Virus record (IMG/VR): IMGVR_UViG_3300014043_000277
Origin: a virus
Taxonomy: Duplodnaviria; Heunggongvirae; Uroviricota; Caudoviricetes
DNA: 64,000 nt
Reading direction: 5' to 3' (one strand)
In this document: one piece after another, positions 8,477-32,358 of the stretch
Numbering within the stretch: the first letter of the stretch is position 1
Layout: every line of letters starts with the position of its first letter
The notes under the pieces: model-generated
Database searches by the model: none
Told to the model about the DNA's origin: nothing
The model's input: only the letters and a program-made list of their open reading frames with translations
Translations under genes and position numbers: made by a program

Positions 8477-8773
8477 TCAATTCAAACTCATGACCGGCGT
8501 GTAATCAACAAGCAAATCAAAAAGTCTATCCGCAGTCTGGAAAAACGACATGTCCGACGCGGCATCATTGGCCGGTTCAAACAGAATGGTAACATAATCA
8601 TCATCAATTGAATGCAATGATGCGCTCAAATCATTAATGGAAGCTATATGTTCACATGAATTCATTATATGCTTCTCAGTATGAGTGAGAACACTCATGT
8701 TGAAAGTCATGAGCATGCTTTCAATTGGTGATTTCATTTGCAAACGGACACTGGATTCATTCAAATCATTCAT
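8477..8773 (-). CDS. Hypothetical small protein
   Basis: 98-aa ORF immediately downstream of 8770..9309 with overlapping stop and start, consistent with translational coupling. Confidence 0.3.
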   Translation of the reverse strand: MNDLNESSVRLQMKSPIESMLMTFNMSVLTHTEKHIMNSCEHIASINDLSASLHSIDDDYVTILFEPANDAASDMSFFQTADRLFDLLVDYTPVMSLN

Positions 8774-9309
8774 TTAACAGAATCCTCCTTGCTTGAACTA
8801 ATGACACGCGGGCAAGGATGACTGTTATCAGTGGGTTCAATTGGTTTCATGGATGATACTGGAACCATTGTTCTAATATTGGATGATTCCATTGTTTCCG
8901 GTTTCTTCTGTGACCGCATGGTTCCAATGGAATACAGTTTCACTGGCATTCCACCGATTAGCATAAGTCCCGCGTTCACCAACAGTATCATCATTATTTC
9001 ATATAATAACCGCAGGGTTCCCACGGCGGCTGCGAAAACGCCGGACAGCATGAACAGCTTACCTGTTGTGAAAGCCGTCATTGTTGAACCGAGCAATCGG
9101 TTAATCATGTCAAGCATGCCTGTTCCATCAATAAGCAGAATGAACACGGCGCAAGCAGCGAACACCATTAATGCGACGACAATGGATAATAGTAATTGCA
9201 ATAGGACAAAAGGAATGAATCCAATGTTTCCAATTGTTATGACAGACCGTCCTTTGTTGTCTTTATCAATAATTGAATCAATCATGTTAACAATGATATC
9301 ATTATTCAT
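8770..9309 (-). CDS. Hypothetical polytopic membrane protein
   Basis: Several hydrophobic segments (FIPFVLLQLLLSIVVALMVFAACAVFILLI, LFMLSGVFAAAVGTLRLLYEIMMILLVNAGLMLIGG). Confidence 0.4.
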   Translation of the reverse strand: MNNDIIVNMIDSIIDKDNKGRSVITIGNIGFIPFVLLQLLLSIVVALMVFAACAVFILLIDGTGMLDMINRLLGSTMTAFTTGKLFMLSGVFAAAVGTLRLLYEIMMILLVNAGLMLIGGMPVKLYSIGTMRSQKKPETMESSNIRTMVPVSSMKPIEPTDNSHPCPRVISSSKEDSVK

Positions 9310-16262: not shown

Positions 16263-17219
16263 AAGTCTTCAATAGACACGATTATCAGTATATTAATAGT
16301 TGATATAATGTATGAAATATGTGAATACATTACACTTGGCCGCTTTCAGGTGAACCGCACTTCGGACAAAATCCTGAAAACAATGTTTGCAGGAACGCGA
16401 TAATGTGATATTGTTGATGACAACAGGAACGGAACAAGTATCATCCGATTCCGACATAACAGAAAACAAACCATCCAGTTTACACATGATTAAGTTCATG
16501 TCCACACGGAAAGGAAAACACAGCATGACAGCTGCATGCACATTGACAACAAAGAACAACATTGATGACATTGACATCACGGAAAACCTGATTCTGAAAT
16601 CGGATTCATACAAGTATTCCCACTGGTTGCAGTATCCCACGGGATTGACTTATATGTTCGATTATCTTGAATCACGCGGAACAAACCATAACATTGATAA
16701 GCATGTCATGGATGAAACCCGCTTTTTCGGATTACAATACTATGTTAAAAAGTATCTTTCTCGACCAATCACAATGGGAATGATTAATCAGGCAGAGGAA
16801 ATCATCGCCGGGCAGGGATTGCCTTTCAGCAGGGAAGGATGGGAATTGATTCTGAACGAACACAATGGTTTCATTCCAATCCGCATCCGCGCCGCCAAGG
16901 AAGGCGCATTGATCCCGGCGCATAATGTGTTGATGACCATTGAATCCACTGATGACAGGATTCCATGGATTGTCGGATGGGCGGAAACACTGCTCATGAA
17001 AGTATGGTATCCGACTACTGTTGCGACATTATCATATTCAATTCATGAACTCATTAAGAAATATTTGGATTTTACCAGATTGTTGTGGGAATGCCCCTGC
17101 TTTTTAAGTATGAGGGTTAAAAAGCATAACCTGCTTGCAATTAATAGCATAATTAATATAATCAACCAGCATGATTGATAATGTGATATCATTGAGAACA
17201 ACACCGGGAAGGAGGAAAC

Positions 17220-18590
17220 GTGATGACACCAGAGGAACGCGAGCTGAAGAACAAGCACATTAGCGAGAGCATTAAAGCTACTCGTGAGAAGCGCAAGAAT
17301 CAGCGTGCGATGGTGTTCATCATGAAAATCAACAAGGGTAAACTCACTCATCAGCAGCGGAAACTGCTTAACCGCGTGTTCCTTGAGGCGAAATGGCTCA
17401 GGAATGATATCATTAGCAGTCAGGATGTACTCAAGTATAACCCAGCAATCAGGAAGGTTAAGGTAATCATCCCGGAACCCGCGAAGCAGCGTGACCCGAA
17501 ACTACATGATAGGACTGAGCACCTGATTGCACTCGGTAGTCAAGTCAAACAGGGCGTTCTCAAGCAAGTGAAGGATGACATACGCGGTTTGCATGCTGTT
17601 AGGGTGAAGGGCGGTAAGGTTGGCTCACTGAAATTCACCAGTGAGGTGAACTCAATTAACCTACCGCAGTATGGTATCACGTGGCGGGTTAAGGGAAACT
17701 CTAATAAGATTAAAATACAGGGAATCCCCGGTTACTTGTATGTTAAGAACCTGCAACATGAACTCTTTAACACGCAGTATGATTATAATCTCGCGAACGC
17801 GAAATTATTGCGTCGTTCGGATGGTTATTATATTGCCATAACGGCTTACCTGAGTAATGATGATTATAAGAATAGGAGAATTAATCATGATAGGAAGGTA
17901 ATGAGGAAGGAACCAGCATCGGATACTTACATTGGTATTGATGCTGGTTTGCAGCATCAGTTCATTATGAGCACGAATGGTGAGCCTGTTTACAAGGACG
18001 CATACCGGAGTGAATCGAAGCGGTCTAAACGCGCGAGAGCGCACCAGAAAATGAAGAAGCACGGCTCGAAACGGTATGATAAGTGTAAGCGGGTTATTCG
18101 GCAGGATGGTGAACGCAGGCAAGCATGGAAGAGAATAACAGCGCATCAGTTCGTCCTATGGTTATTAAGCATGTTTGAAACTATTTGTATTCAGGATGAG
18201 CATTTTCAATCATGGTTCAGAGTGAATGGTTGTAAGATGAGCGATGGTATCCTCGGTCGGGTTTACGCTGAATTACGTGGGCTTGCTGGTGAGTCATCGC
18301 CGCGTGTGCTCATGTGTGATGAGTGGCAACCCACGACACAGTATTGCCCGTTCTGCGGGCATTGTACTAAGCATAAACTATCAGAGCGCGTGTTCCATTG
18401 CGCGTATTGCGGTTTTGAAATGGATCGGGATACTCATGCGGCATTGAACATGATTATCCTCGCGCTGGAACCATTGCCTGCTTACTGGTGGCGATTATCT
18501 GAGTTTAAACCACTGGACTCAGTTAAAAGGATTAATAGTGGTTTAACCGTGCGTGAGAGCGCGGTTATTAATCACGCTGGTCTGCATTAA
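17220..18590 (+). CDS. tnpB: TnpB (OrfB), the IS200/IS605-family RNA-guided endonuclease
   Basis: 456 aa. The C-terminal zinc finger CPFCGHCTKHKLSERVFHCAYCGFEMDRDTHAALNM sits next to a RuvC-III region, and the basic HTH-like N-terminus is typical of TnpB. A strong AGGAGG lies 7 nt upstream of GTG-ATG. Confidence 0.8.
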   Translation: MMTPEERELKNKHISESIKATREKRKNQRAMVFIMKINKGKLTHQQRKLLNRVFLEAKWLRNDIISSQDVLKYNPAIRKVKVIIPEPAKQRDPKLHDRTEHLIALGSQVKQGVLKQVKDDIRGLHAVRVKGGKVGSLKFTSEVNSINLPQYGITWRVKGNSNKIKIQGIPGYLYVKNLQHELFNTQYDYNLANAKLLRRSDGYYIAITAYLSNDDYKNRRINHDRKVMRKEPASDTYIGIDAGLQHQFIMSTNGEPVYKDAYRSESKRSKRARAHQKMKKHGSKRYDKCKRVIRQDGERRQAWKRITAHQFVLWLLSMFETICIQDEHFQSWFRVNGCKMSDGILGRVYAELRGLAGESSPRVLMCDEWQPTTQYCPFCGHCTKHKLSERVFHCAYCGFEMDRDTHAALNMIILALEPLPAYWWRLSEFKPLDSVKRINSGLTVRESAVINHAGLH

Positions 18591-18760
18591 ATTGCAGGGA
18601 ATGTGAGCCGATTGGTTACACTGTTTGATACTCTCGTGTCTGATGGTGATTACTGTCCAATCGCGTTTCCCGGCCAGTGAACCCACAGTGTTAACACTTG
18701 TTAATTCTGAGCATTATGCTGAAGCCCCGTGCTTCAGCGCTGGGGTATCTCACAGCGGAT
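18591..18760 (+). ncRNA. Candidate TnpB omega-RNA (right-end element RNA) scaffold
   Basis: Placed by analogy: omega RNAs derive from the 3' end of tnpB and the right end of the element. This region holds stable hairpins including gctgaagc-cccgt-gcttcagc. The extent is not determined. Confidence 0.3.
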
Positions 18761-19448
18761 GATCGAGGTAAGCTACCGTTCATGTTGCAGGATTTCGGTT
18801 ATCGTGGCGTATCCAGTGATGAATCAGCCGGTATTGGCGGAATGGCTCATTTGACTAATTTCAAGGGAACGGATACCGTCGCCGCCGCCGCTTACGCGCG
18901 TAAATACTATCATGCGGACATTGCCGGTGTCAGCATTCCCGCATCCGAGCATTCCACCATAACATCCTGGGGTGCCGGGCGTGAGAGATGGACAGGAAGC
19001 ATTTGAAAACATGATTAACCGGTTCGGGGATTATGCGAATTATGCTTGCGTGTCCGATTCATGGAATTATGATCGCGCATTGCGCACATGGATTTCATTG
19101 AAACCATTGATTGAACGGCATGATGGCATTCTTGTCGTGCGTCCTGATTCCGGTGATAATGTCAGGAATGTGCTTGTAGCATTACACGCATATTGGATGA
19201 GGGATTCGGAAGCACTGTGAACAGCAAGGGCTACAAGGTTCTGAATCATGTCGCCGTCATTCAAGGTGATGGTTGTGATTATGATAGCATTGAACGCATT
19301 CTGCAAGCGACAATGGATGCTGGTTATTCCGTGCAGAATCTTGCATTCGGAATGGGTGGCGCGCTGTTGCAGGGTGGTGATCATTCATCCGTGAACCGCG
19401 ACACACATAAATCTTTCAAGGACGTCATCTAAGAGACAACATCAAGCC

Positions 19449-21400: not shown

Positions 21401-22897
21401 TTATTTGCTTTTATGCCATCCAATACGGTTCAACGCCTGTTCATTGTTCTTCGTTAGCCATTGTTCCGGTGATGCGGGTGATTGTATTCCGCAGGATTTA
21501 CACATCAGCATACGTGTTCCATCAACTGTTTTGATTTTATAACTGGTTAATGGTTTACGGCATTGGATGCATTTTCCTGATTGCAGAATTGCGAGGCGTT
21601 CAGCCGTATTCGCTTGTTCAGGTTCCATTCCGCGTTCATGAATATGCAGTATGATTGTATACAATGCGTTCAAATCAATGCTGCTGTCCAATGCGGTTAT
21701 TTTATCATTGAAAGTGCATTTGTTCATCAGCGCCTTGATTATTGTTCCGTTCTTCGCGCGATGCTTGCGTTTTTCAGCGATTATCATGTTAATCTGATTC
21801 AATGCGTTATCAAGCCATTTGATTGCAATGGCGTTCTGTTGTTGCTGTTTCGCGCTTGCTTTATCCGGATTCACCAATATTTTCTTTATTGCGGATTCTT
21901 TAAGATTGTTTCCTTTCCTGTAATCATTGATTCGTCCGATTGCATTCCGAATGACATCATGGGTGACGCGTTCAATTGGAATTGATTGCAGGTTATGGAT
22001 TTCATTCATGGCGAAACGGCTGCAATCCGGCGTCATTGGTTTATAACCGGCGTAATCCATGAATGCATGGATGTTATCATGTATCCTTGCGGCGCGGGTC
22101 GGTTCGAATCGTCTGTTGAGCCATTCGCCTAGTTCAAGATGATCCTTGTCGGCATTGCATGCATGACAGCATATGATGACATTGCCGAATATGGTTTCTC
22201 CGATTCCGAGTTCTACTGGATTTGCAATTGGAATGATATGATCGCCTGTTCTGCGTCTATCGCCACTGTCAGTCATTTTATGGCCGCAATAAGCGCATCT
22301 TCCATTGAACCATAGGACGGTTCTGATGAATTGCTCATATGTGAAACCGTTGTTCAACGCCGTCATTATGCATCTTGCGATTCCACTACGGATTGATGCT
22401 TTGTTCATGCTTAATGGCTTCCCTGCTGCGATGATAGTGAAAATGTCATCAACATGCATTTCGCCGTTGAATTCAATGTAATCCTTGTATTGCGGGATTG
22501 TCCGGATGTTCCGTTTGCACCAGTCTGTTCCTTTTGGATTGTTTTTCATGATGAATGCAGCCAATGCGTTCACTGTGACGCCATATTGCAGCCATTCGCG
22601 TTTATCATGCCGTTTCATTGGGTCCGTGCCATCAGCATTGTTCACGGCGGTGATTTTTGTCTCAGGCATGTCGATATGGTTGCTTAGCGCGCCGAGCATG
22701 AGGTTCAACGCGCTTTTATCGCCTTCCAGCGTTTTCGGCATGTTCTGCGTGATGGCTAATGCGATTGCGGTGTCATCATGCGGGTCGATTCCTGCCTTAT
22801 CGCATAGTTCAAGCCATTCTGTTTGATCATATGTCATTCCGAGGCATAATTGCATGAGGCCGGGGATTATTTCACGAGCGGATTGTTTGTCAGTCAT
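21401..22897 (-). CDS. HNH endonuclease-domain protein, 498 aa, actinobacterial DUF222/13E12-like architecture
   Basis: The HNH core is FNGRCAYCGHKMTDSGDRRRTGDHIIPIANPVELGIGETIFGNVIICCHACNADKDH. It is a paralogue of 26464..27903. Confidence 0.6.
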   Translation of the reverse strand: MTDKQSAREIIPGLMQLCLGMTYDQTEWLELCDKAGIDPHDDTAIALAITQNMPKTLEGDKSALNLMLGALSNHIDMPETKITAVNNADGTDPMKRHDKREWLQYGVTVNALAAFIMKNNPKGTDWCKRNIRTIPQYKDYIEFNGEMHVDDIFTIIAAGKPLSMNKASIRSGIARCIMTALNNGFTYEQFIRTVLWFNGRCAYCGHKMTDSGDRRRTGDHIIPIANPVELGIGETIFGNVIICCHACNADKDHLELGEWLNRRFEPTRAARIHDNIHAFMDYAGYKPMTPDCSRFAMNEIHNLQSIPIERVTHDVIRNAIGRINDYRKGNNLKESAIKKILVNPDKASAKQQQQNAIAIKWLDNALNQINMIIAEKRKHRAKNGTIIKALMNKCTFNDKITALDSSIDLNALYTIILHIHERGMEPEQANTAERLAILQSGKCIQCRKPLTSYKIKTVDGTRMLMCKSCGIQSPASPEQWLTKNNEQALNRIGWHKSK

Positions 22898-22963: not shown

Positions 22964-23707
22964 TCATGATGCGTGTTCATGATTATCGTTCTTATGCATT
23001 TTATGTTCTTTCAATAATTCCGATACTGCGCCTGCCATGGTTGCCGCGCCTGTTATTCCTAAAGTATCGGATATTGCGTTTCTATGATTGCCTTTATCCA
23101 CATTATTTTCACTTTTCATGAACCGTGGATTGCTGTCTCCGTCAATTTTGATTGAGCTGGAACCATATATTCCTGTTTTCACTTGCACTGCAGTGCCATA
23201 AGCGCCTTTTTCTATTTTCTTACTTGTGAGTACAGTTATTATGCTTCCATCTTGTTTTCGTATTTCTGTTTTATAACCGCGTTTCGTATGCCAGCGTTTT
23301 CCAACGCGATACATTTGAATTGAATATGATGAATCCTGATGTGTTACTGTCGCTGATTGAGATTGTCCGCTTGTCGTATAATTCAAACCGACTGTCAATG
23401 CCGCTCCGATAAGCAATCCGCATAAACCATATTTCGCGGCCTGCATTGCAACGCTCGCTTTATCGGATTTGAATTTCCTTTCATGTGGTTTCATATTGAA
23501 CACACTGGAACTGCTCATTCCCATGTTGTTGTTCCCAATGGTGTAAGCATGGGCTGCGGTTTCCTCGTTTCTGTGTTCCGCTTCCTGTTTCGTCATGTTC
23601 CCATGTTGCGTATGATACGGGCAATTATTCGGATCTTTCGCCCTGCATCTGCTCCAATTCCCGTTCTTATCCAATCCGTATCGGGGTTTGATTGACATTA
23701 ACGCCAT
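22964..23707 (-). CDS. Hypothetical protein with an N-terminal Cys/His motif, one transmembrane segment and an extracytoplasmic domain
   Basis: The N-terminus reads GNWSRCRAKDPNNCPYHTQHGNMTKQEAEHRNEETAAHAY. The transmembrane segment is AAKYGLCGLLIGAALTVGL. Confidence 0.4.
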   Translation of the reverse strand: MALMSIKPRYGLDKNGNWSRCRAKDPNNCPYHTQHGNMTKQEAEHRNEETAAHAYTIGNNNMGMSSSSVFNMKPHERKFKSDKASVAMQAAKYGLCGLLIGAALTVGLNYTTSGQSQSATVTHQDSSYSIQMYRVGKRWHTKRGYKTEIRKQDGSIITVLTSKKIEKGAYGTAVQVKTGIYGSSSIKIDGDSNPRFMKSENNVDKGNHRNAISDTLGITGAATMAGAVSELLKEHKMHKNDNHEHAS

Positions 23708-23769: not shown

Positions 23770-23809
23770 AATTGTCCACATGCATTCAAATGCTTGCATG
23801 TGGACAATT
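23770..23809. terminator. Intrinsic terminator at the end of the glycosylation operon
   Basis: aattgtccacatgca-ttcaaatgct-tgcatgtggacaatt forms a perfect 15-bp stem directly after the stop of 23824..24120. On the minus strand it is followed by TTTTGAT. Confidence 0.7.
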
Positions 23810-23823
23810 ATTCATGATTGTTC

Positions 23824-24120
23824 TCATTCATTATGATTATCATCAATGAGCGATAGAACAAGATTCGCGAGTGCGTCCGGTAGCGAGTATGGGTCAATTC
23901 CCGGTTCCATGACTATTGGTATGAGCGCGGTGATGACTGCTGTCCGTGTAATCATGTCATCGGTGATTCCGGCTTCCTTGCAGCGTTGTTTCCAATCCTG
24001 TCGGCATGCTTCCAATTGCCTGTTCATGTCCGTATCCGCATGGATTGCCATTAATGCTGGCATGAGTGCTTTCCGGATGTCATTGACCCATTCGTTCATA
24101 TCATTCATATCATTGTTCAT
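23824..24120 (-). CDS. Hypothetical small acidic protein
   Basis: 98-aa ORF whose start overlaps the stop of the upstream GT-C gene. Confidence 0.35.
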   Translation of the reverse strand: MNNDMNDMNEWVNDIRKALMPALMAIHADTDMNRQLEACRQDWKQRCKEAGITDDMITRTAVITALIPIVMEPGIDPYSLPDALANLVLSLIDDNHNE

Positions 24121-25724
24121 GCGTCAATAATATCCTTCCATTCTGCAGGTTCGCGTTTCTTTCTGACGGCATTGCATGCATCCGTTAACACTTCCAATCC
24201 TATTCCGGCATATGGGATGAGCAATAGGAAATACGTGTAAGCATACTCAGGTTGCGTTTCCCAGAATACATGGAATATGAATCCGCCGAGGATGCATAAT
24301 GCGGGTAACGCGGCCATGATATCATGTTTTCGTTTCGCAATCGGCAATCCGATTAACGCCATTATGCTGATGATTATGCATGCGGCATCAGCGATTGTCC
24401 GCGTTGAAACCATGAATGCACTTGATGTAACTATTTTCTCACCTGCCGTGAGTTTCATTTTACCTTGCAGCTCTTTATTGTTGGCAACATTCAGGAATAT
24501 TGAATTACCGACGCGAACCTGATATGAGAATGTCGGTTCCGCCCATGTTTGAGCGATTTTAACAGAGAAGAAATTAATCGCGTATAACGGGTTTGTTGTA
24601 AGTTTGCTGATTTGACGGGATAGGGTTTCATTCGCGTTCCGATTAATGGTTTTAGCATCAGTCCATGCGTAACCGGCCTTCTGATAATAGAATCCTTTAC
24701 CATGATCACTGCCGTCATTCAATCCCATCGCAATGAAATTCCTCATTGGCTGTGCTTCTGATTGTTCAAATTTAATGCCTGAAATCATTTCCATGCTGTT
24801 CACGGCGATAGTCTTACCTGTCATCATGCATGGTATTATGAGAATCCCTGCGATTATCAGAATTATTGTCTTTTTCAATTGAACATGATGAATACATGCA
24901 TACAGGATGAAACTGATGGTTAATGCTATGCCGATTATCATGTTGTTCGGTTTGATGAAACCGGCTATGATTGCAAGAATGAGAATGCTCAGGATTCTCA
25001 TTATGAATGGTTTGAATGTCTTGTTATCATTAATGCTGATTGCAAGCAGTATCATTCCTGTGATGAGAGGCAGGGACATGATGTTTCCATAAACCTGAAT
25101 CATGCTTAACGGCAAGGGAATGAACATCATGAGAATCAATGCTGTCCATTTCGCGGTTTTCTCACCGTTCAACCGTTTCGCTATGAAAATCAGATTAAGC
25201 ATGGTGATTATCATGAGGATCATGTTCGCATATGACATCATGAGATACACGCCATTCAGGTTCATGTTCTGGAACAGCATGATGAATGGAAGCATTATGA
25301 TGAGGACACCTGATTGATATGGATAACGCTGCAGGTAAATATAATTCTTATCATGATAATCATTTCTGATGATGTCAAAACCGATTTTCATCATGTTTTC
25401 ACCGTCTCCCCTATCACGGAAACCGGATAATGTCAACCATGTGAATGCAATGATTACAGTGAATGCAATGCTTATCATGATAACGTGTTTCAGTTTCATC
25501 CTGCTAATGAACCCGGTCATTCGGTTCAATGCATACATGATTGCAATCGCAATGATGATTCCTATTATTGCCGCTGTCATATCAAAATATGGATTTCTGA
25601 CAGTGAATGAACCCGTGTAGCACATTGTCAGGAACACGTTCAGGAATGCGATGATTATAAGGATGATGAATGACAGCGCATATGAGAATCCGAACAGCAC
25701 TTTCCCTATTTTCTCAACATTCAT
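24117..25724 (-). CDS. GT-C-fold-like polytopic membrane glycosyltransferase, paralogue 1
   Basis: 535 aa with more than 10 predicted transmembrane segments. It shares the RYPYQSGV motif and the C-terminal WETQPEYAYTYFLLLIPYAG with 28066..29691 and 29716..31308. Confidence 0.5.
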   Translation of the reverse strand: MNVEKIGKVLFGFSYALSFIILIIIAFLNVFLTMCYTGSFTVRNPYFDMTAAIIGIIIAIAIMYALNRMTGFISRMKLKHVIMISIAFTVIIAFTWLTLSGFRDRGDGENMMKIGFDIIRNDYHDKNYIYLQRYPYQSGVLIIMLPFIMLFQNMNLNGVYLMMSYANMILMIITMLNLIFIAKRLNGEKTAKWTALILMMFIPLPLSMIQVYGNIMSLPLITGMILLAISINDNKTFKPFIMRILSILILAIIAGFIKPNNMIIGIALTISFILYACIHHVQLKKTIILIIAGILIIPCMMTGKTIAVNSMEMISGIKFEQSEAQPMRNFIAMGLNDGSDHGKGFYYQKAGYAWTDAKTINRNANETLSRQISKLTTNPLYAINFFSVKIAQTWAEPTFSYQVRVGNSIFLNVANNKELQGKMKLTAGEKIVTSSAFMVSTRTIADAACIIISIMALIGLPIAKRKHDIMAALPALCILGGFIFHVFWETQPEYAYTYFLLLIPYAGIGLEVLTDACNAVRKKREPAEWKDIIDA

Positions 25725-26434
25725 TTCATTTTCCTTCTCCGTGTTTTGAATGCAAGCATTTCCTTGATGGCGTCAATGCCTTTCGCACCCATGTTCCGAA
25801 TGTTCACGCTGTTCACGCCTGTATCACGTGGTTTGAATGATGTTTCAATGAATTCAATGTGCTCATGATTGCCGATGAACGCGGCGGTGAGCAGAATGTT
25901 CGTGAAATCAGGTTCCGGCTGCATCATATGCATGGCATTCTTGAACGCATCATATTTCATGAGCCGGAATGGCGTGTTTGAATCAACAACATGATGATGG
26001 AACAGGATTGCGAATACTAATCTAAGCACTCTTGTGCTGAACATTCTGAACAATCCATCCTGACGGTGTTTCCTGTATCCCATGATGACATTATTGTCAT
26101 TGCGTGCGTCCCATAGTTTTTTGAAATCAGCCGGGTCAGTCTGACCATCGGAATCAGTTTGGAAAATCCAATCAGGCTTCATGTTCAATGCCTGCATGTA
26201 ACCATGATATAATGCCTTGCCATGACCGCTGTTCGGTTGGGACATGAGAATTATATGAGGATCATGCATTCCGGTGATTTTCACGGATGTCTCATCACGA
26301 CTTCCATCATCAACGATGATTATCCTGTAATCATCGGTTCCAATCGCATCATTGAATTCATGCATCCATGATTCCAACACGTTCCGTATTGCTTTTTCCT
26401 CATTATAAGCAGGCATCACCATTATCAGTTTCAC
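25721..26434 (-). CDS. GT2-family glycosyltransferase (polyprenyl-phosphate sugar synthase, Ppm1/DPM1/GtrB-like)
   Basis: MPAYNEE...IIIVDDGSRDET..., the canonical GT2 N-terminal DxD region. 237 aa with no C-terminal transmembrane segments. Confidence 0.65.
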   Translation of the reverse strand: MKLIMVMPAYNEEKAIRNVLESWMHEFNDAIGTDDYRIIIVDDGSRDETSVKITGMHDPHIILMSQPNSGHGKALYHGYMQALNMKPDWIFQTDSDGQTDPADFKKLWDARNDNNVIMGYRKHRQDGLFRMFSTRVLRLVFAILFHHHVVDSNTPFRLMKYDAFKNAMHMMQPEPDFTNILLTAAFIGNHEHIEFIETSFKPRDTGVNSVNIRNMGAKGIDAIKEMLAFKTRRRKMK

Positions 26435-26463
26435 GTAATGAGAATATCATGAAACTAATATTA

Positions 26464-27903
26464 TCATGCTTGTTGGATGCGCATGGTTTCAATGGCGAGT
26501 TCCTTTCTGATGTCATCAGCTGGAACTCCATCATGTTTCATTTTCTCCAATCGTTTCACGGCGACATTAACGGCTTTCGCTTTCATTGTATCCATGCGTT
26601 CATACATGGCGAAATCACGGAATGATTGGATGCCGAGCATCGCCGCGCGCCGTTGTTCATCAGTCAGCATTCTTGTTTTATGAATCCATGATTTCAATGG
26701 TTGGTTCGCCTTGTCATTATTGCATTTATGACAGCATAATGCCATGTTGCCGAATTTCGTTTCACCGGGCGGATTGCCATCCAATGGATCAAGATGCTCG
26801 CCTGTCGCGGCGTTCGCCGCCTGTCTACCGCTTCCTGAATTCTTAATCAATGGTTTGCTGCAATAACAGCATCGCCCACCGAAAAACATGACACTGGCGA
26901 TATACTTTTTCTTATTCATGTCATTCGCGGTATTGCTTAGCAAACAGCGCCGAACGTTTTTCTCGCTTCCATATCCAAACCTGCGTGTCATCGCACCGAC
27001 ATTATTGGAAATCAATGCCGCCATGTCCTCCATGCGGACATCCTTACCGCAATACGCCCGGAAACGCACGGCGTTATCATCATCGGATTTCAAATACGAC
27101 AGTATTTTATTTTCAATTTTCCCCTGATTCCGTTCATTCTGGATGCTGTTCATCATTCTGTCAGTCATTGCTTGCAAATGTTTCCAATCATCATCCGTTA
27201 TCGTGGAATTCACACTGGCGACAGCCCCATTGAAATGTCTGCGTTCAATCGGTTCTCCTTGTTTCCATGCTGGTTGCAATGGTTTGCCGAAACGGGATTT
27301 ATCCTGTAATTGTTTCCTTTTGATTGGTTTACGAATCATTCCTTCCTTACCGCAATCCACAGTGAACGGTTTCACTGGTTTGAAATCGAGTTTCGCGGTG
27401 TCAACGGGTTTGCCGTTCCGAGATGTGCTTAAAGTGATATGCATGGTTTCGGCACCATGATAGTATTTGCGTTTGTTTTCAGGAATTCGAACAAGTACAC
27501 CCTCATTCACGCCATCATTGGCATAACCGATGATTTGAATGTTTCGCATTGGTTTACCATGACCGAATTCCGGTTCGGGTTCCTGATTGAAACCGAATGT
27601 TATATGAGGTTTTCTGATTTCGTTTTCCAATGGTTCACGGCTTATATGCTGGTTTATTTCCTCAAAAAACTTATCCCTGTTGAAAAACACGCCATAATAC
27701 ACTGTCCTGTATTCAGTTTTGTTTCTATTATGCATTCCAATGCCGTCATTGCGCTCATTGAAATTCTCATAAGCCTGTTCAATGGTATCAGCTTTAATGT
27801 CCGTGCCTTGATGACAGGGAATTGGACATGGATCGGATGCGCATTTAGCCAGTTTCCCTGTATGCGTTCCGTCTTTACTAATGATTTCATGCCAGCATGT
27901 CAT
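26464..27903 (-). CDS. HNH endonuclease-domain protein, 479 aa, paralogue of 21401..22897
   Basis: HNH core FFGGRCCYCSKPL...GEHLDPLDGNPPGETKFGNMALCCHKCNNDKAN. It carries an N-terminal Cys/His motif CASDPCPIPCH. Confidence 0.6.
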   Translation of the reverse strand: MTCWHEIISKDGTHTGKLAKCASDPCPIPCHQGTDIKADTIEQAYENFNERNDGIGMHNRNKTEYRTVYYGVFFNRDKFFEEINQHISREPLENEIRKPHITFGFNQEPEPEFGHGKPMRNIQIIGYANDGVNEGVLVRIPENKRKYYHGAETMHITLSTSRNGKPVDTAKLDFKPVKPFTVDCGKEGMIRKPIKRKQLQDKSRFGKPLQPAWKQGEPIERRHFNGAVASVNSTITDDDWKHLQAMTDRMMNSIQNERNQGKIENKILSYLKSDDDNAVRFRAYCGKDVRMEDMAALISNNVGAMTRRFGYGSEKNVRRCLLSNTANDMNKKKYIASVMFFGGRCCYCSKPLIKNSGSGRQAANAATGEHLDPLDGNPPGETKFGNMALCCHKCNNDKANQPLKSWIHKTRMLTDEQRRAAMLGIQSFRDFAMYERMDTMKAKAVNVAVKRLEKMKHDGVPADDIRKELAIETMRIQQA

Positions 27904-28065
27904 ATTACGAATCTATCATATGTTTCCAATGTAATGGCTATGGTATTATTGAAATCATGATGCCTGCATATGGAATGCATAAAATGGATATTTTAATGTG
28001 AGAATCCAACAATGATGATTACCAGTGATAATCCTGAACTGATTTTTAACAATATTCATTCTGTT

Positions 28066-29691
28066 TTAATCATGCTGAAAACTTTTTATTAATGATTTTT
28101 TATCGTTGTTTTTGCCAGCAATGTTATCAATGCTGAAATCGTTTGTTATCATTGCGGCGTATGGTATTAGCAGTATGAAATACGTGTAAGCATATTCAGG
28201 TTTCGTCTCCCAGATTAAATGGAACAGGAACCCTCCGAGAATGCAAACACCGAGAAGTATTCCATAAGCATCATGACGATTCCGCATTATTCCGATGATT
28301 GCGAATGATGATATGAGAATACATAAACCATCCAACCATGATCGAGTTATTATCATGAAAGCATTGGAATCAATTATTTTCTGCCCGATTGTCTCATGCA
28401 ACACTGGTTCTTTCGCGTTTTCAACGATTCCATCCTTATCATCATTATCAATGTTATTCTGTTTTACATATTCACTATAATAATATGATTCAGCTGGCCG
28501 TGTCACGTATGAGAATGTAGGTTCCGCCCATGTTTCCATTGTTTTCACACGGAAGAAATCAATTAAATATGACGGTTGTTTGAATTTCACTGATTGTTTA
28601 CGCCATGTGTTATCAGCGTTCCTGTTGGATTCATCCAATGTGTATCTTGTTGACCCGATATTCCATTTAAAGAAACCATAACCGCCAGCCGCATCATCAT
28701 TCAAACCCATGATCATGAAATTCTTTGCCGGTGCTTTCATGTTCTCATTATAATCAACACCGGTGATTCCCTGTAATAATGCGGGAGCTAGTGCAGCACC
28801 GATCATCATAAATGGAATTATGATGATTCCGGTGATTGTATGTTTCCAGTTTATTCTAATCATTGAACAAACTATGAGAATGATTGTTATGGCAATGCCG
28901 ATTATCATGTTGTTCGGTTTGATGAAACCCAGTATGACAGCAACAAGCATGATGATTATCGCATTCCGCCAATTGAATGATTTCATTAGTCTGATTGCGG
29001 TTAATAATGCTAATAGGATTAACGGAACGCTTAACGTATTACCATATACTTGAATCGCGCTCATTGGAATCACTATGAATCCCATTGATAACAGGATAGC
29101 CGCGCATCCGGCATTCTCGTCTTTTAATTCTTTTGTTATCAATCCTATTAACGGTATGATTGTCGCTGTCCATAATGTGTTCAATGTCATCATGATGCCA
29201 TATGCGAACCATATGTCTCTTCCAATGGCGTGCGATAATAATGCGAATGGATACATGATTAAACCGACACCTGATTGATACTGGTATCGTTCCATGTATT
29301 TCAGATATGTCGTTCTCCAATCATCATTATTATCTATAATGCTCCAATCGAACCGCAGTATTGATGTTGAATCATCCTCCGGATGGTATCCGCTCATAAT
29401 CAACCATATCATTGACATGATGAATGAGAACATGAAACCAATTATAATAAGCCGTTTGAATCCAATTCGTTCAATGATGGCATTAATTTTTTGAATCATT
29501 GACAGCATTATGATTCCAATGCTGGCTCCCATGATTGCAATAATGTAATTATTGGAAGTGAATGCAAATGAATATGGCGTTGAATAACATACTGTAAATA
29601 TGATGTTCAATAATGCGATGATGGCAATGGCGATGATTGAGAACCATGCTCCGATATTGTTCATGAATTGTCCGATTCTCTTAATCATCAT
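28066..29691 (-). CDS. GT-C-fold-like polytopic membrane glycosyltransferase, paralogue 2
   Basis: 541 aa and multi-pass. Carries the YQYQSGVG motif and the C-terminal WETKPEYAYTYFILLIPYAA. Confidence 0.5.
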   Translation of the reverse strand: MMIKRIGQFMNNIGAWFSIIAIAIIALLNIIFTVCYSTPYSFAFTSNNYIIAIMGASIGIIMLSMIQKINAIIERIGFKRLIIIGFMFSFIMSMIWLIMSGYHPEDDSTSILRFDWSIIDNNDDWRTTYLKYMERYQYQSGVGLIMYPFALLSHAIGRDIWFAYGIMMTLNTLWTATIIPLIGLITKELKDENAGCAAILLSMGFIVIPMSAIQVYGNTLSVPLILLALLTAIRLMKSFNWRNAIIIMLVAVILGFIKPNNMIIGIAITIILIVCSMIRINWKHTITGIIIIPFMMIGAALAPALLQGITGVDYNENMKAPAKNFMIMGLNDDAAGGYGFFKWNIGSTRYTLDESNRNADNTWRKQSVKFKQPSYLIDFFRVKTMETWAEPTFSYVTRPAESYYYSEYVKQNNIDNDDKDGIVENAKEPVLHETIGQKIIDSNAFMIITRSWLDGLCILISSFAIIGIMRNRHDAYGILLGVCILGGFLFHLIWETKPEYAYTYFILLIPYAAMITNDFSIDNIAGKNNDKKSLIKSFQHD

Positions 29692-29715
29692 GTTTTCCTT
29701 ATCTTTTGACTTAAT

Positions 29716-31308
29716 TCATATTTTTTTCAATTGGATTCCTGATGATAGGATACCGGCATATGGAAACATTAATAGGAAATACGTGTAAGCATACTCCGGT
29801 TGCGTTTCCCATAAATAATGGAACAGAAACCCGCCGATGAGAATCATGGCTGGAAGAACAATGGCTTCATTGCATTCATGCATTCTGATGAATTGGAACA
29901 GCATGATGCAAACGAGAACCATGACAAGCATTTGCAATCCATCCCAGTATAGCATGAACATGGTTTTGTTATCATTCATGAATGCAGTGAATACTTTATC
30001 CTGTCTGGTTCCTGATGCCTGTATGAGCGAACGTCCGAAAACCGCGAATGACGGTTCGCTCCATGAATACAATGTTTTCCTTACAAGCATTTGAATCCAC
30101 CAGTTATTCTCATTCAAACGATTCACATGTTCATTGAATAATTGTCTGGCGTTTTCCGATGCTTTATCCGGTGTCCAATCATCATTCCATGTTCCACCGA
30201 GATAATCCTCCTGATAGAAACCGGGCGTCGCAGTCAATGGATTGTAATCCGTTCCCATCGCAATCCAACTCATTGCAGGTTGACGTGAGTTTTTCAAATC
30301 GGCGTCAGTGAATGATTGCATGATGTTAACAGGAATGATTGAACCAAGAATGGCGGCGATGATGATAATCGGCATGAGAATGAGATTCCGTTTCCTATGT
30401 TTCAACAATCCGAGAATGAGAATGATTATCATTGCAATCACTGTAATCATCATGTTCGTTTTGAACCATAACATTCCGAATACCGAAATGAACAGGATTA
30501 TGGCTCTTCTGATGAATGCATGTGTGTTCATGTTCTCATCAGTGAGTTTTATTATCATCAGTATTCCGAGGAACAGGAATGGCAGGCATAGGATGTTCCC
30601 GTAGATTTTATAGCCGCTCATTGCGAACGGTGAATACAATGTAAGCATTATCATTGTCATGTTAAATGCGGAATTGCCACTGTGGCGCGTTTTAACGGCT
30701 ATTTCACGGGCGATCATGCTGATTAGTATCCCTGATATGGGAATGATGATTATCGCGTTTATAAGACGCATTACAAGCATGTTCATGGATGCTCCTGTGA
30801 ACATCATCATGAGCATCATGTATAATAGTACACCTGATTGATATGGATAATGGGTGATATACGCATAAGCGTCAGGCAGCGTGTCATCATATAACGGCGT
30901 GTCCGCTGTCAGGAAGCCATGCTCATGGATTTTCGCGGCGATTTCCATGAGTTCATATGAATCCTCCGGTTCCGTTTCCGCCGCGAACACCGTCCATGCG
31001 ATTCCTGTTAACATTATGATGGCAGTGCATACAATGCCTGTCATCATTGGTTTCAAACGGATTATGTCATCATGCAATGTCATTATCAAACCGAATATTG
31101 CGATTGCGATTATGATGCTGGCGATTATAATCACTGGATTCATGCCATTCATCCAATCGGCATTATCGAATGAACCATACCATGCGATGCTGTTCAATAT
31201 GATGATGACAGTGATGAACATTGTTATCATGAATGCGATGGATAACACCGACTTGCATAGGAATGAATGAATCCTGTCCATGAATCCATGTGAGTTCATT
31301 GATGACAT
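29716..31308 (-). CDS. GT-C-fold-like polytopic membrane glycosyltransferase, paralogue 3
   Basis: 530 aa and multi-pass. Carries the YPYQSGVL motif and the C-terminal WETQPEYAYTYFLLMFPYAG. Confidence 0.5.
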   Translation of the reverse strand: MSSMNSHGFMDRIHSFLCKSVLSIAFMITMFITVIIILNSIAWYGSFDNADWMNGMNPVIIIASIIIAIAIFGLIMTLHDDIIRLKPMMTGIVCTAIIMLTGIAWTVFAAETEPEDSYELMEIAAKIHEHGFLTADTPLYDDTLPDAYAYITHYPYQSGVLLYMMLMMMFTGASMNMLVMRLINAIIIIPISGILISMIAREIAVKTRHSGNSAFNMTMIMLTLYSPFAMSGYKIYGNILCLPFLFLGILMIIKLTDENMNTHAFIRRAIILFISVFGMLWFKTNMMITVIAMIIILILGLLKHRKRNLILMPIIIIAAILGSIIPVNIMQSFTDADLKNSRQPAMSWIAMGTDYNPLTATPGFYQEDYLGGTWNDDWTPDKASENARQLFNEHVNRLNENNWWIQMLVRKTLYSWSEPSFAVFGRSLIQASGTRQDKVFTAFMNDNKTMFMLYWDGLQMLVMVLVCIMLFQFIRMHECNEAIVLPAMILIGGFLFHYLWETQPEYAYTYFLLMFPYAGILSSGIQLKKI

Positions 31309-31359
31309 TCCCTTTCTTTTTGTTTTCTACTTACATATTATTTTAGTATTATGTAAGTT

Positions 31360-32358
31360 CTATCGGCATGATTGAATGCCTTTTTCCAATGCTTTCTTAT
31401 CCGCGGCAGTGATTGACAGATTGTATTTTAATGCTGTATCAATCCATTTAGCTGAATACAGGCAGGTGAATTTCTTATTCTTCGGCATCCATCCGGACGG
31501 ACCTTTGCTTCCTTTTGCCCTGTTCGCACTTGCATCCACTGCAACCAGTTGACTCATGTCATTTGCGAAAGCGGTTTTCTGCTCCGTATTCCATTTCGCC
31601 GCTCCATGTGAATTCGCATATTCGATGGGCACCAAATGGTCCACATCCAGGTCGCTTGGATTATTGAATTTCTTACCGGTATACGGGTCAGCGTATGAGA
31701 ACCCGTCCTTCTGCTCCGCCTTGCAGGTTTTCGCGTTACTGTTGAATCCGGCTGCTTTCAGAATGGTTTCACGAGTATCGCATTTCCCGGATTGAATAAT
31801 CCAATGAGGATAATCCGCGCGATTATAATCACTATTATCAGCATCAGCGATTGTTATTTGATTCAATTTAGCTTCCAATTCGGTTTTACTGTCATCAGTG
31901 CTCCCATCGCCGCCAACGGAACCGTCATTGTTCGCATTGGAACCATTATTCCCGGAATTATTGGTTGTTCCGGGGTCAAGATTACCGAGATTAGCGAATG
32001 GATTATTGGATTCATTGCCATTATTCGGGAACAGATTATCAAAATCGCCATGACTGGGTGCCGGGGCATCCCCCGGATCTGACAGCCCGCCACTGGGCGT
32101 GTTCACGCAATTGGAATTTTTAAGAATATTGCAGTTCAGCATTTCATCAAATTTGGCAACCACGTTATCTGAAAATTCCTGCATTGGATTCACGGACGCT
32201 TTTGAATTGTCAATGATTGATTCCGCGTCAGTGTTACCAGTGTAACGCAGGAATGAAACGACACAGGCGGCAACGATAATAATGGAAATACCAGCGGTTA
32301 TCGCGCCGACAATACCACCTGAACCTTTTTTCTTTCCGCCTGATTTTTTCTTAGCCAA
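31360..32358 (-). CDS. Membrane-anchored extracytoplasmic nuclease-like protein, DUF1524/GmrSD-C-type His-Me finger
   Basis: A basic N-terminus and transmembrane segment (IVGAITAGISIIIVAACVV) are followed by an Asn/Gly-rich linker. The motif DVDHLVP...W...NL..V....N..KG matches the DUF1524 pattern. Confidence 0.45.
   Translation of the reverse strand: MAKKKSGGKKKGSGGIVGAITAGISIIIVAACVVSFLRYTGNTDAESIIDNSKASVNPMQEFSDNVVAKFDEMLNCNILKNSNCVNTPSGGLSDPGDAPAPSHGDFDNLFPNNGNESNNPFANLGNLDPGTTNNSGNNGSNANNDGSVGGDGSTDDSKTELEAKLNQITIADADNSDYNRADYPHWIIQSGKCDTRETILKAAGFNSNAKTCKAEQKDGFSYADPYTGKKFNNPSDLDVDHLVPIEYANSHGAAKWNTEQKTAFANDMSQLVAVDASANRAKGSKGPSGWMPKNKKFTCLYSAKWIDTALKYNLSITAADKKALEKGIQSCR

What the first reader, a model, noticed from the sequence alone, without database searches (positions are those of the whole stretch)
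23824..32358. Glycosylation island: one GT2 enzyme plus three paralogous GT-C-like membrane transferases, interleaved with HNH endonucleases and a secreted-type nuclease
Seven genes run on one strand. In order they are a DUF1524-like membrane nuclease, GT-C paralogue 3, GT-C paralogue 2, HNH endonuclease B, a soluble GT2 (Ppm1/GtrB-like), GT-C paralogue 1 and a small protein. A perfect 15-bp terminator closes the run. The three 530-541-aa polytopic proteins share the RYPYQSGV motif and the C-terminal WETxPEYAYTYFLL(L)xPYAG, so they are clear paralogues. This reads as one polyprenyl-phosphate-sugar synthase feeding three alternative extracytoplasmic transferases. That is a three-component envelope glycosylation system, built with three alternative GT-C transferases and interrupted by an HNH gene (a second HNH lies just outside at 21401..22897). 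No GtrA/GtcA-type flippase is visible. The triplicated GT-C set and the HNH genes suggest a phase-variable or serotype-converting module. The repeated paralogues and HNH genes may drive recombination among them.
Basis: partly seen in the sequence, partly recalled or inferred. Interest (0 to 1): 0.7.

Follow-up and report, generated by a model that had tools for sequence, protein, structure and literature searches.

The report
Huge-phage cell-envelope glycosylation gene cluster
A giant, uncultured phage-like element carries one lipid-sugar synthase and three divergent membrane sugar-transferases that most likely decorate the surface of its (probably Gram-positive) host; this is a known kind of system in an unusual carrier and layout, and the nuclease genes mixed in with it are fixed neighbours, not mobile elements.

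Summary
Seven minus-strand genes lie at the stated coordinates and a 15-bp hairpin closes the run.

The 237-aa GT2 has no transmembrane helix. Its best matches are polyprenyl-phosphate glycosyltransferases (ArnC, PgfS, GtrB-like PHROG). A 38%-identical bacterial homologue is flanked by two CHIM_prot genes.

The carrier is a novel huge-phage-like lineage (contigs of 88-495 kb). Four diverged lineages keep the core order: anchored DUF1524 nuclease, GT-C type A, "HNH-B", GT2, GT-C type B. GT-C copy number is 2, 2, 3 or 6.

HNH-B is a conserved 2H-phosphoesterase plus HNH fusion, not a homing endonuclease. I found no sign of phase variation and no flippase.

A GTC1/GTC2 chimera occurs in two assemblies, with its crossover in a 35-nt identical stretch. 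It is either recombination or an assembly artefact.

Verdict: an envelope glycosylation module, a new variant of a known kind, of moderate interest.

The parts
31360..32358 (-). Membrane-anchored extracytoplasmic nuclease. It has a Lys-rich N-terminus, one TM helix (residues ~16-34), an N/G/S/D-rich low-complexity linker and a C-terminal GmrSD_C/DUF1524 His-Me nuclease domain (DVDH...N...N...K). It lacks the DUF262/GmrS half of GmrSD.
   Evidence: Pfam PF07510 at 2.2e-11, residues 225-324. Sequence and hydropathy. Orthologues (54-57% identity) lie directly upstream of GT-C type A in L001, L089 and L119. No homologue in 161 bacterial CHIM_prot loci.
29716..31308 (-). GTC3, the 'type A' GT-C paralogue (530 aa).
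   Evidence: Paralogy. Retains all family-invariant residues of alignment A2. Orthologues at 33-35% identity sit in the same position in L001, L089 and L119.
28066..29691 (-). GTC2, an extra 'type B' GT-C paralogue (541 aa). It is present in this lineage but absent at this position in L089 and L119.
   Evidence: 37-38% identical to GTC1. Weak PMT_2 hit at 0.0058. Near-identical orthologues carry PF27792 CHIM_prot. The lowest G+C of the region, 0.370, lies here.
26464..27903 (-). HNH-B (479 aa): an N-terminal G..L..C..P..C..H knuckle, a 2H-phosphoesterase domain (PHITFGF and MHITLS motifs), a helical linker and an HNH nuclease (CCYC...GEH...GN...CC..CN). It is a conserved neighbour, with no evident role in glycosylation.
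25721..26434 (-). GT2 (237 aa, GTG start, no TM helix), the putative polyprenyl-phosphate sugar synthase. It carries DDGSRDE and TDSDG (DxD) motifs.
   Evidence: Pfam Glycos_transf_2 at 9e-20. PHROG 841 'GtrB-like O-antigen conversion' at 2e-22. NCBIfam best hits ArnC, PgfS, AglJ and PpgS, all below their cut-offs. PDB ArnC at 2.5e-9. 3574 homologues, many of ~235-245 aa and annotated dolichol-phosphate mannosyltransferase. The bacterial homologue P0324 is flanked by CHIM_prot genes.
24117..25724 (-). GTC1, the 'type B' GT-C paralogue (535 aa). It is translationally coupled to GT2.
23824..24120 (-). p98, a small acidic soluble protein of unknown role. Its start overlaps the GTC1 stop.
   Evidence: No family hit. 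A 42%-identical orthologue follows the last GT-C of L001. No homologue in the bacterial loci.
23770..23809 (-). Terminator-like hairpin with a perfect 15-bp stem.
   Evidence: Sequence. RNA fold -25.3 kcal/mol, z -5.3.
24928..24962 (.). 35-nt stretch identical to 28895-28929 in GTC2 (encodes GFIKPNNMIIGI). It is the crossover point of the chimeric proteins P0004 and P0337.
   Evidence: A 36-nt identity lies at the same place in L002.
21401..22897 (-). HNH-A (498 aa), a paralogue of the HNH-B C-terminal half. It lies outside the finding but is conserved downstream of the module in L001 and L119.

Best explanation
This is a multi-component transmembrane glycosylation module carried by a novel huge phage-like element. 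The proposed steps are these:
1. The TM-less GT2 works at the cytoplasmic face and transfers a monosaccharide from a host nucleotide-sugar to undecaprenyl phosphate (inferred from homology).
2. A host flippase (GtrA/GtcA/CflA-type or Wzx-type) moves the lipid-linked sugar outwards (inferred; none is encoded in the window).
3. The three GT-C enzymes share that donor and each attaches the sugar to a different acceptor or position on host surface glycopolymers: wall polysaccharide or teichoic acids of a probably Gram-positive, Bacillota-like host (inferred). They have an invariant Asp107 in a predicted outside loop.

The likely pay-off is remodelling of the infected cell's surface. That would mask receptors, giving superinfection exclusion or keeping progeny from sticking to debris. 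GT-C copy number expands and contracts between lineages as acceptors change.

The anchored DUF1524 nuclease and the 2H-HNH protein are conserved phage-specific neighbours. Their link to glycosylation is not shown.

Shown here: gene set, paralogy, GT-C fold, family membership, the bacterial genomic contexts of homologues, conserved core order and variable copy number. Inferred: donor, acceptor, flippase, host and biological role.
For: - Family: TIGR03766 'XrtG-associated glycosyltransferase' matches at 1.2e-10 over nearly the full length. PF27792 is recorded on orthologues. There are 7615 representatives at E<=1e-3.
- Conserved residues: 15 invariant columns, including D107, are shared by all three paralogues.
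- Bacterial contexts of homologues: one lies at the end of an Rgp-type rhamnan cluster (L006). One lies next to GtrA (L008). In Streptococcus equinus one is followed by a PgfS/GtrB-like GT2. A GT2 is present in 63 of 161 loci. Tandem GT-C copies occur in 15 of 83 loci, and some loci have the GT-C-GtrA-GT2 arrangement.
- GT2. Its 38%-identical bacterial homologue lies between two CHIM_prot genes and a PMT_2 gene.
- Coupling: GT2, GTC1 and p98 have overlapping start and stop codons.
- Conserved core order in L001, L089 and L119, with 6, 2 and 2 GT-C copies.
- Evolutionary rate: GT-C orthologues are only 33-43% identical, against 61-63% for GT2, 54-57% for the nuclease and 60% for PIF1.
- Precedents: one GT-A serving several GT-Cs, a shared flippase and a TM-less GT-A (GacI) are all documented (PMC8035078). 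Phage-borne gtr operons are documented too (PMC3688519, PMC11436027).
Against: - No biochemical evidence exists; donor sugar and acceptor are unknown.
- No flippase gene and no GacJ-like partner for the TM-less GT2 were found in the window.
- All NCBIfam hits are far below their equivalog cut-offs.
- Phage identity is inferred, not proven. There is no capsid, portal or terminase gene in the 64 kb, most ORFs are orphans, and no GT-C relative is in IMG/VR.
- The host is unknown. Some distant relatives of the HNH family lie beside Lsr2-like genes, which points to Actinomycetota for those elements.
- The fixed link with two nucleases is unexplained by a pure glycosylation model.
Confidence: 0.65

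Rival explanations
1. The chemistry is the same but the acceptor differs. The GT-Cs O-glycosylate extracytoplasmic disordered regions of membrane or surface proteins, as PgtC2 and PgfM1 do in streptococci. One possible target is the low-complexity linker of the adjacent membrane-anchored nuclease, which glycosylation could protect from proteolysis.
For: The nuclease has a linker of ~130 residues, rich in N/G/S/D/T, between its TM anchor and its catalytic domain. It is always the gene directly upstream of GT-C type A in four lineages. GT2 plus GT-C protein glycosylation of such regions is established in streptococci (PMC12041528). The GT2's second-best NCBIfam hit is PgfS.
Against: The characterised protein-glycosylating GT-Cs are of the YfhO family, not CHIM_prot (PMC12041528). 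The linker is Asn/Gly-rich rather than poly-Ser/Thr. Bacterial CHIM_prot genes sit in polysaccharide loci (rhamnan, ABC exporter, RgpF) and never next to a DUF1524 gene.
Confidence: 0.15
2. One reading: a phase-variable or serotype-converting module in which HNH endonucleases and repeated paralogues drive recombination, so that alternative GT-Cs are swapped.
For: A clean chimera (GTC1 residues 1-~268 joined to the GTC2 C-terminal half) appears in two Logan assemblies. 35-36-nt exact identities occur between paralogues that are otherwise 37% identical, and a 62-nt exact run occurs in L001. Copy number differs between lineages.
Against: The HNH genes are fixed in position and are divergent orthologues, so they are not recent mobile insertions. 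Short-form HNH relatives in IMG/VR huge phages have no GT-C or GT2 nearby. There are no simple-sequence repeats or invertible segments. The chimeric contig (GT2-chimera-TnpB) is exactly what a path switch at the 35-nt repeat would produce from an L117-like genome, in which both parents are intact. From memory, Logan assembles with k=31.
Confidence: 0.08
3. The element is not a phage but a giant plasmid or other extrachromosomal or chromosomal island of a Bacillota bacterium. In that case the cluster would be ordinary cell-wall glycan decoration for the cell's own use.
For: The window has no capsid, portal, terminase or lysis gene. It does have TelA, an SPFH protein, CAAX proteases and a replicase/primase-like gene. 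The GT-C scans of IMG/VR found nothing.
Against: The window has no ribosomal, tRNA or housekeeping genes. Genes run almost entirely on one strand and most are orphans. The window encodes a 1167-aa Big_2 protein matching a PHROG 'structural protein with Ig domain' at 6e-27. It also encodes a PIF1/Dda-like helicase whose relatives are in jumbo phages, and NAMPT and ClpB-like genes typical of large phages. Relatives of its HNH family lie on 200-437-kb IMG/VR viral genomes. GmrSD_C, HNH-B and p98 have no homologue in 2.2 Mb of bacterial CHIM_prot loci.
Confidence: 0.1

Closest known systems
GtrABC O-antigen glucosylation operons of temperate Shigella and Salmonella phages (SfV, SfX, P22, BTP1)
   Same: Phage-borne. 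A GT2 makes the lipid-linked sugar and a polytopic membrane transferase adds it to a surface glycan outside the cytoplasm. The role is surface conversion or superinfection exclusion (PMC3688519, PMC11436027). PHROG 841 'GtrB-like' is the best phage-family hit of the GT2.
   Different: There is no GtrA flippase. The GT2 is 237 aa without the C-terminal TM helices of GtrB. There are 2-6 transferases per synthase rather than one. The transferases belong to a different family (CHIM_prot), typical of Gram-positive Bacillota. The carrier is a huge, probably virulent, element rather than a ~40-kb temperate phage.
Multi-component transmembrane glycosylation systems of Gram-positive bacteria (CsbB/GtcA/YfhO, GtlA/GtlB, CsdAB/CD/EF plus CflA, GacI/J/K/L, RgpI/RgpH)
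   Same: A GT-A synthase, a flippase and a GT-C decorate LTA, WTA or rhamnose polysaccharides. One GT-A or one flippase can serve several GT-Cs. GacI is a TM-less GT-A (PMC8035078, PMC9574508). Bacterial homologues of the phage GT-C occupy the position at the end of rgp-type clusters, paired with a GtrB/PgfS-like GT2.
   Different: The module is encoded by a phage-like element. No flippase and no GacJ-like helper is present. It is linked to nucleases. Equivalence of the L006 and L075 genes with RgpH/SccN is inferred from gene order only and was not tested by sequence.
PF27792 CHIM_prot / NCBIfam TIGR03766 'XrtG-associated glycosyltransferase'
   Same: Full-length profile match for GTC1. PF27792 is precomputed on 93-98%-identical orthologues of GTC1 and GTC2. 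The C-terminal GGF[LI]FH..WE motif is shared.
   Different: The TIGR03766 score is 40.9 bits against a 500-bit equivalog cut-off. No PF27792 hit is recorded for orthologues of GTC3, and only weak hits for the L089 type A copy. The phage proteins are 23-28% identical to bacterial members.
ArnC/ArnT (lipid A aminoarabinose modification)
   Different: Sequence identity to ArnT is about 10%. The host is probably Gram-positive, so lipid A is not the acceptor. The window has no Ara4N synthesis genes.
GmrSD/BrxU type IV restriction enzymes
   Same: The first gene of the module carries the C-terminal DUF1524 His-Me nuclease domain.
   Different: It has no DUF262/GmrS NTPase domain. It has a signal-anchor and linker that place the nuclease outside the cell. 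It has no PADLOC hit. It is not a GmrSD.

Membership tests
GT-C fold glycosyltransferases | Polytopic membrane protein with 8-13 or more TM helices | tested here: met
   About 10-12 hydrophobic segments in each paralogue. The model is all-helical with long TM helices.
GT-C fold glycosyltransferases | Structural similarity of the TM core to solved GT-C enzymes | tested here: met
GT-C fold glycosyltransferases | Conserved acidic residue (DxD or a modified form) in an extracytoplasmic loop near the N-terminus | tested here: inconclusive
   D107 is invariant in 32 sequences, including all three paralogues. It lies in the loop after the third TM helix, which the positive-inside rule places outside. 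It is a single Asp rather than a DxD, and the topology was not tested experimentally.
GT-C fold glycosyltransferases | Uses a polyprenyl-phosphate-linked sugar donor | not testable with these tools
   Supported only by adjacency and translational coupling to a GT2 of the polyprenyl-phosphate class.
PF27792 CHIM_prot / TIGR03766 | Profile score above the curated threshold | tested here: not met
   TIGR03766 scores 40.9 bits against a cut-off of 500, for GTC1 only. PF27792 is absent from the local Pfam copy. It is recorded on near-identical orthologues of GTC1 and GTC2 but not of GTC3. The proteins are therefore family relatives, not equivalogs.
Three-component (Gtr-type) glycosylation system | GT2 that makes the undecaprenyl-phosphate sugar | tested here: inconclusive
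   The best hits are all of this class: PHROG 841 at 2e-22, and ArnC, PgfS, AglJ, PpgS and PDB ArnC. All are below equivalog cut-offs, and activity was not tested.
Three-component (Gtr-type) glycosylation system | GtrA/GtcA-type small flippase encoded with the system | tested here: not met
   No ORF in the 64-kb window has a GtrA-like profile. The only small ORF with three TM segments (8770-9309) hits DUF3566 weakly. None is seen in L001, L089 or L119.
GtrB/CsbB subfamily of GT2 | C-terminal pair of TM helices (protein of ~310-330 aa) | tested here: not met
   The protein is 237 aa with no hydrophobic segment. Bacterial GT2 neighbours of CHIM_prot genes are mostly 313-332 aa. The phage enzyme resembles the short, TM-less class (GacI- or DPM1-like, ~235-245 aa).
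HNH homing endonucleases (mobile) | Sporadic presence or absence at a site among related genomes | tested here: not met
   HNH-B orthologues (47-50% identity) lie directly upstream of GT2 in L001, L089 and L119.
HNH nucleases | beta-beta-alpha-metal core with the catalytic His and Asn residues and Cys4 zinc site | tested here: met
2H phosphoesterases | Two H-x-T/S-x motifs on a 2H fold | tested here: met
GmrSD type IV restriction enzymes | N-terminal DUF262 (GmrS) domain fused to DUF1524 (GmrD) | tested here: not met
   Only PF07510 is found, at residues 225-324. The N-terminus is a TM anchor plus a low-complexity linker.
Phase-variable surface-modification loci | Simple-sequence tract, invertible promoter or similar switch | tested here: not met
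   TRF finds only arrays of about 2 copies of 6-11-nt units, scoring 30-40. There are no close inverted-repeat pairs apart from the terminator hairpin. Methylation-based switches were not tested.

The most novel reading that the evidence does not exclude
Huge phages of Gram-positive gut bacteria carry a conserved 'cell-surface island': an outward-facing anchored nuclease, an expandable battery of 2-6 GT-C transferases fed by one TM-less lipid-sugar synthase, and a 2H-phosphoesterase-HNH enzyme (plus type IV pilin-like genes in one lineage). On this reading they use it during infection to rewrite several wall glycopolymers at once and to destroy incoming or released DNA. That would be a multi-layer superinfection-exclusion system. 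New transferase specificities would arise by duplication and by recombination between paralogues at short identical tracts, as the GTC1/GTC2 chimera would show if it is real.
Probability: 0.2. Interest if true: 0.6.

Novelty: new variant of a known kind. Interest (0 to 1): 0.4.

Why it matters
Phage-borne surface glycosylation is well known from small temperate phages of enterobacteria. It changes serotype, immune recognition and phage susceptibility. Here the same logic appears in a previously undescribed huge-phage-like lineage, built from a transferase family (CHIM_prot/TIGR03766) for which I found no characterised member. The copy number is lineage-specific and the transferases evolve fast.

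If the function holds, huge phages would remodel the walls of gut Bacillota. The family would also gain a first functional assignment that transfers to thousands of bacterial genes in wall-polysaccharide loci. Finally, it gives a tractable set of natural paralogues, and possibly a natural chimera, for mapping acceptor specificity in GT-C enzymes.

Tried and rejected
- DNA hypermodification (glycosyl- or arabinosyl-hmC) was my first alternative, because FolD and a GmrSD-type domain lie nearby. I rejected it. The transferases are polytopic GT-C enzymes with outside-facing conserved loops, the nuclease is anchored outside the cell, and the window has no hydroxymethylase. The 'GT-C' hits of the literature search were false matches to 'GT-containing'.
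- A literature search for 'CHIM' was useless because it matched journal abbreviations.
- The PDB sequence search with the GT-C profile found nothing. Only the fold search worked.
- The afdb50 fold library was unavailable.
- megablast of the region against isolated phages found no match. tblastn with GTC1 found one 5-kb faecal contig at 26%. tblastn with HNH-B found none.
- IMG/VR scans with the GT-C alignment and with GTC1 found no relatives.
- PADLOC gave only generic PtuB-like HNH hits.
- The suspected homology between p98 and the N-terminus of HNH-A is not significant (E 0.27).
- I expected divergence between paralogues to be concentrated in the outside domain. It is spread throughout, and only the C-terminal TM segment is clearly more conserved, at 44-58%.
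- The host could not be determined. The window has no tRNAs, there is no close isolated phage, and taxonomic hints conflict. GT-C and GT2 relatives point to Bacillota. Lsr2-like genes lie beside distant HNH relatives.

Full report
OBSERVATION. The region holds seven minus-strand ORFs exactly as listed. In transcription order they are as follows.
- 31360-32358: 332 aa, with a C-terminal GmrSD_C/DUF1524 domain (Pfam 2.2e-11). It has a Lys-rich N-terminus, one TM helix and an N/G/S/D-rich linker of ~130 residues. This is a type II anchored nuclease with its catalytic domain outside the cell.
- GTC3, 29716-31308: 530 aa.
- GTC2, 28066-29691: 541 aa.
- HNH-B, 26464-27903: 479 aa.
- GT2, 25721-26434: 237 aa, with no hydrophobic segment.
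- GTC1, 24117-25724: 535 aa.
- p98, 23824-24120.

GT2/GTC1 and GTC1/p98 overlap by 4 nt. A perfect 15-bp hairpin follows at about 23770-23809 (dG -25.3 kcal/mol, z -5.3). The three long proteins are 24-38% identical to one another. They share [RH]Y[PQ]YQSGV and the C-terminal WET.PEYAYTYF motif.

WHAT THE LONG PROTEINS ARE. Local Pfam gives only a sub-threshold PMT_2 hit for GTC2, and PHROGs gives nothing. NCBIfam matches GTC1 to TIGR03766 'XrtG-associated glycosyltransferase' over almost its whole length (1.2e-10, far below the equivalog cut-off). Near-identical database orthologues carry the new Pfam family PF27792 CHIM_prot.

The family is large: 7615 representatives at 50% identity with E<=1e-3.

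BACTERIAL RELATIVES AND THEIR CONTEXTS. A scan of GTDB species genomes found 480 loci. Nearly all are gut or rumen Bacillota, among them Lachnospiraceae, Clostridia, Butyrivibrio and Streptococcus equinus, at 23-28% identity. A metagenome scan found more than 500 further loci.

The contexts are informative:
- One homologue closes an Rgp-type rhamnan cluster containing RgpA-like, ABC exporter and RgpF genes (L006).
- One follows a GtrA gene (L008).
- In S. equinus Sb05 the homologue is followed by a 308-aa PgfS/GtrB-like GT2 (324 bits).

Of 161 bacterial loci, 63 hold a GT2 related to the phage GT2, mostly 313-332 aa long. Fifteen of 83 have two or three tandem GT-C copies, and some show the GT-C-GtrA-GT2 order. 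This is the signature of the multi-component transmembrane glycosylation systems that decorate LTA, WTA and rhamnose polysaccharides (PMC8035078, PMC9574508).

THE GT2. It has a Glycos_transf_2 domain (9e-20). Its best phage family is 'GtrB-like O-antigen conversion' (2e-22). Its best NCBIfam matches are ArnC, PgfS, AglJ and PpgS, all polyprenyl-phosphate glycosyltransferases and all below cut-off. Its best solved relative is ArnC (2.5e-9).

It has 3574 homologues at E<=1e-10. Many are bacterial proteins of the same short length (235-245 aa, 38-44% identity), annotated as dolichol-phosphate mannosyltransferase or as GT2 from Lachnospiraceae, Blautia and Clostridia. One of these (P0324, 38% identical) lies between two CHIM_prot genes and a PMT_2 gene, in a locus with sugar-modifying genes. 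The short-GT2 plus CHIM_prot pairing is therefore not peculiar to this window.

The enzyme lacks the TM helices of GtrB. In that respect it resembles GacI, which works with a small membrane partner (PMC8035078). No such partner and no flippase was found in the window.

THE CARRIER. The window has no tRNA, ribosomal or housekeeping genes, and most ORFs have no family. Recognisable genes are PIF1/Dda-like and RecG-like helicases, a primase/replicase, a ClpB-like ATPase, FolD, NAMPT, a nicotinamidase-like protein, TelA, an SPFH protein, CAAX proteases, an ADP-ribosylglycohydrolase and a 1167-aa Big_2 protein. The last matches a PHROG 'structural protein with Ig domain' at 6e-27.

Homologous contigs are 88-495 kb. 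Relatives of the HNH family lie on 200-437-kb IMG/VR viral genomes. No isolated phage is close. I therefore treat the element as a novel huge phage. That is an inference, because the window holds no capsid, portal or terminase gene.

COMPARATIVE ANATOMY. L002-L004, L117 and L118 are strains of the same phage (about 96% nt identity where measured, L002-L004; 93-100% protein identity in L117/L118) with the same order. Three further lineages are diverged: GT2 61-63%, nuclease 54-57%, PIF1 60% and HNH-B 47-50% identical. They keep the same core:
- L089: nuclease, GT-C type A, HNH-B, GT2, GT-C type B.
- L119: the same core, with two type IV pilin-like genes and a knuckle-domain protein inserted.
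- L001: nuclease, type A, two HNH-B copies, GT2, a second type A, a type B copy split into two ORFs, three more type B copies, a p98 orthologue and, further on, an HNH-A orthologue.

GT-C copy number is thus 2, 2, 3 (this window) and 6. GT-C orthologues are only 33-43% identical, so they evolve faster than their neighbours. That fits enzymes whose acceptor sites track a changing host surface.

THE 'HNH' GENES. HNH-B belongs to a family of 32 proteins, known only from large metagenomic contigs. The alignment shows three parts:
- an N-terminal G..L..C..P..C..H knuckle;
- a middle domain with two H-x-T/S motifs (PHITFGF and MHITLS);
- a conserved C-terminal HNH with its zinc-binding Cys residues and the catalytic His and Asn residues.

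None of the nuclease, HNH-B or p98 has a homologue in 2.2 Mb of bacterial CHIM_prot loci. So these are fixed, phage-specific neighbours, not homing endonucleases interrupting an operon. Whether they cooperate with glycosylation or simply share a conserved genome block remains open.

RECOMBINATION. P0004 and P0337 come from two Logan assemblies of neighbouring run accessions. Both are clean chimeras, essentially GTC1-type up to about residue 268 and GTC2-type after it. The crossover lies in the only long exact repeat between the genes: 35 nt at 24928-24962 = 28895-28929. The corresponding repeat in L002 is 36 nt.

The chimeric contig reads GT2, chimera, TnpB. Strain L117 has intact GTC2 and GTC1 and the same TnpB in the GTC2/HNH-B gap. 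A de Bruijn path switch at the repeat would therefore produce exactly this contig. A real tandem duplication would too. This needs read-level evidence. An exact 62-nt run between diverged paralogues in L001 hints at gene conversion.

MECHANISM AND ROLE. Best reading (0.65):
1. The GT2 charges undecaprenyl phosphate with a host-derived sugar.
2. A host flippase exports the lipid-linked sugar.
3. The three GT-Cs put it on different acceptors of the host envelope, changing the surface of the infected cell.

Receptor masking or superinfection exclusion is the precedent from gtr-carrying phages (PMC3688519, PMC11436027). Precedents also exist for one GT-A serving several GT-Cs and for a shared flippase (PMC8035078).

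The main rival (0.15) keeps the chemistry but makes proteins the acceptors, for instance the disordered linker of the adjacent nuclease, by analogy with GtrB/PgtC2 and Pgf in streptococci (PMC12041528). The phase-variation and HNH-shuffling model (0.08) and a non-phage carrier (0.10) are less likely.

VERDICT. The glycosylation reading is well supported at the level of fold, family and genomic association. The phase-variation and mobile-HNH parts are not supported. It is a new variant of a known kind of system: a flippase-less, TM-less-GT2, multi-GT-C module in a huge phage-like element. Interest is moderate (0.4).

Noticed in passing
window 16387-19412: The NAMPT gene is split by an insertion of ~1.7 kb (about 17075-18752) carrying a TnpB/Cas12f-like ORF (17220-18590, +). 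The closely related strains L002-L004 have an intact 487-527-aa NAMPT.
   Followed up: partly
L117 2337-3746; L005 2444-2932 (equivalent to the window gap 27904-28065): In 98-99%-identical strains, a different 469-aa TnpB-like gene is inserted in the GTC2/HNH-B intergenic gap. IS605-type genes also lie near the module in L089 and beside an HNH relative in L092. TnpB elements therefore look active in this phage group.
   Followed up: partly
L005 641-2266 and L095 382-2007 (P0004, P0337); window 24928-24962 and 28895-28929: A chimeric GT-C (GTC1 N-terminal half, GTC2 C-terminal half) appears in two Logan assemblies. Its crossover lies in a 35-nt exact repeat. It is either a real recombinant or duplication, or a de Bruijn-graph artefact.
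   Followed up: partly
window 26464-27903 (N-terminus), 22964-23707 (N-terminus); L119 8375-9463: A short N-terminal G..L..C..(D)P..C(P)..H knuckle heads otherwise unrelated proteins of these elements: HNH-B and all its relatives, p247, and a 362-aa L119 protein. It could be a zinc knuckle or a targeting tag.
   Followed up: partly
L119 4131-4640 and 4939-5433: Two type IV pilin/pseudopilin-like genes (N-termini KGFTLVELLVV...) lie between GT-C type A and HNH-B in one lineage. None is present in the window. Together with the outward-facing nuclease, this recalls competence-type DNA-uptake hardware.
   Followed up: no
window 28001-30000: G+C drops to 0.370 over GTC2, against 0.42-0.44 on either side. 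GTC2 is also the copy missing at this position in L089 and L119.
   Followed up: no
window 16387-19412, 51282-51884, 62351-63232: The window carries an NAD-related gene set: a split NAMPT, an isochorismatase/nicotinamidase-like protein and an ADP-ribosylglycohydrolase. This suggests NAD salvage or counter-defence functions in the same element.
   Followed up: no
window 12812-14107 and 58272-59150; 52714-54090; 55158-56141: The window encodes two CAAX/Rce1-like membrane proteases, a TelA-like protein and an SPFH/Band 7 protein. That is an unusual load of membrane-associated proteins for a phage window.
   Followed up: no
P0044, P0045 (database proteins, 1029-1043 aa): The top hits of the profile search are single polypeptides holding two complete CHIM_prot GT-C units. 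Tandem paralogues have therefore been fused in some genomes.
   Followed up: no
L091/L092 2089-3963: Huge IMG/VR phages that carry short-form HNH-B relatives also encode Lsr2-like DNA-binding proteins. This hints at an Actinomycetota host for those more distant elements.
   Followed up: no
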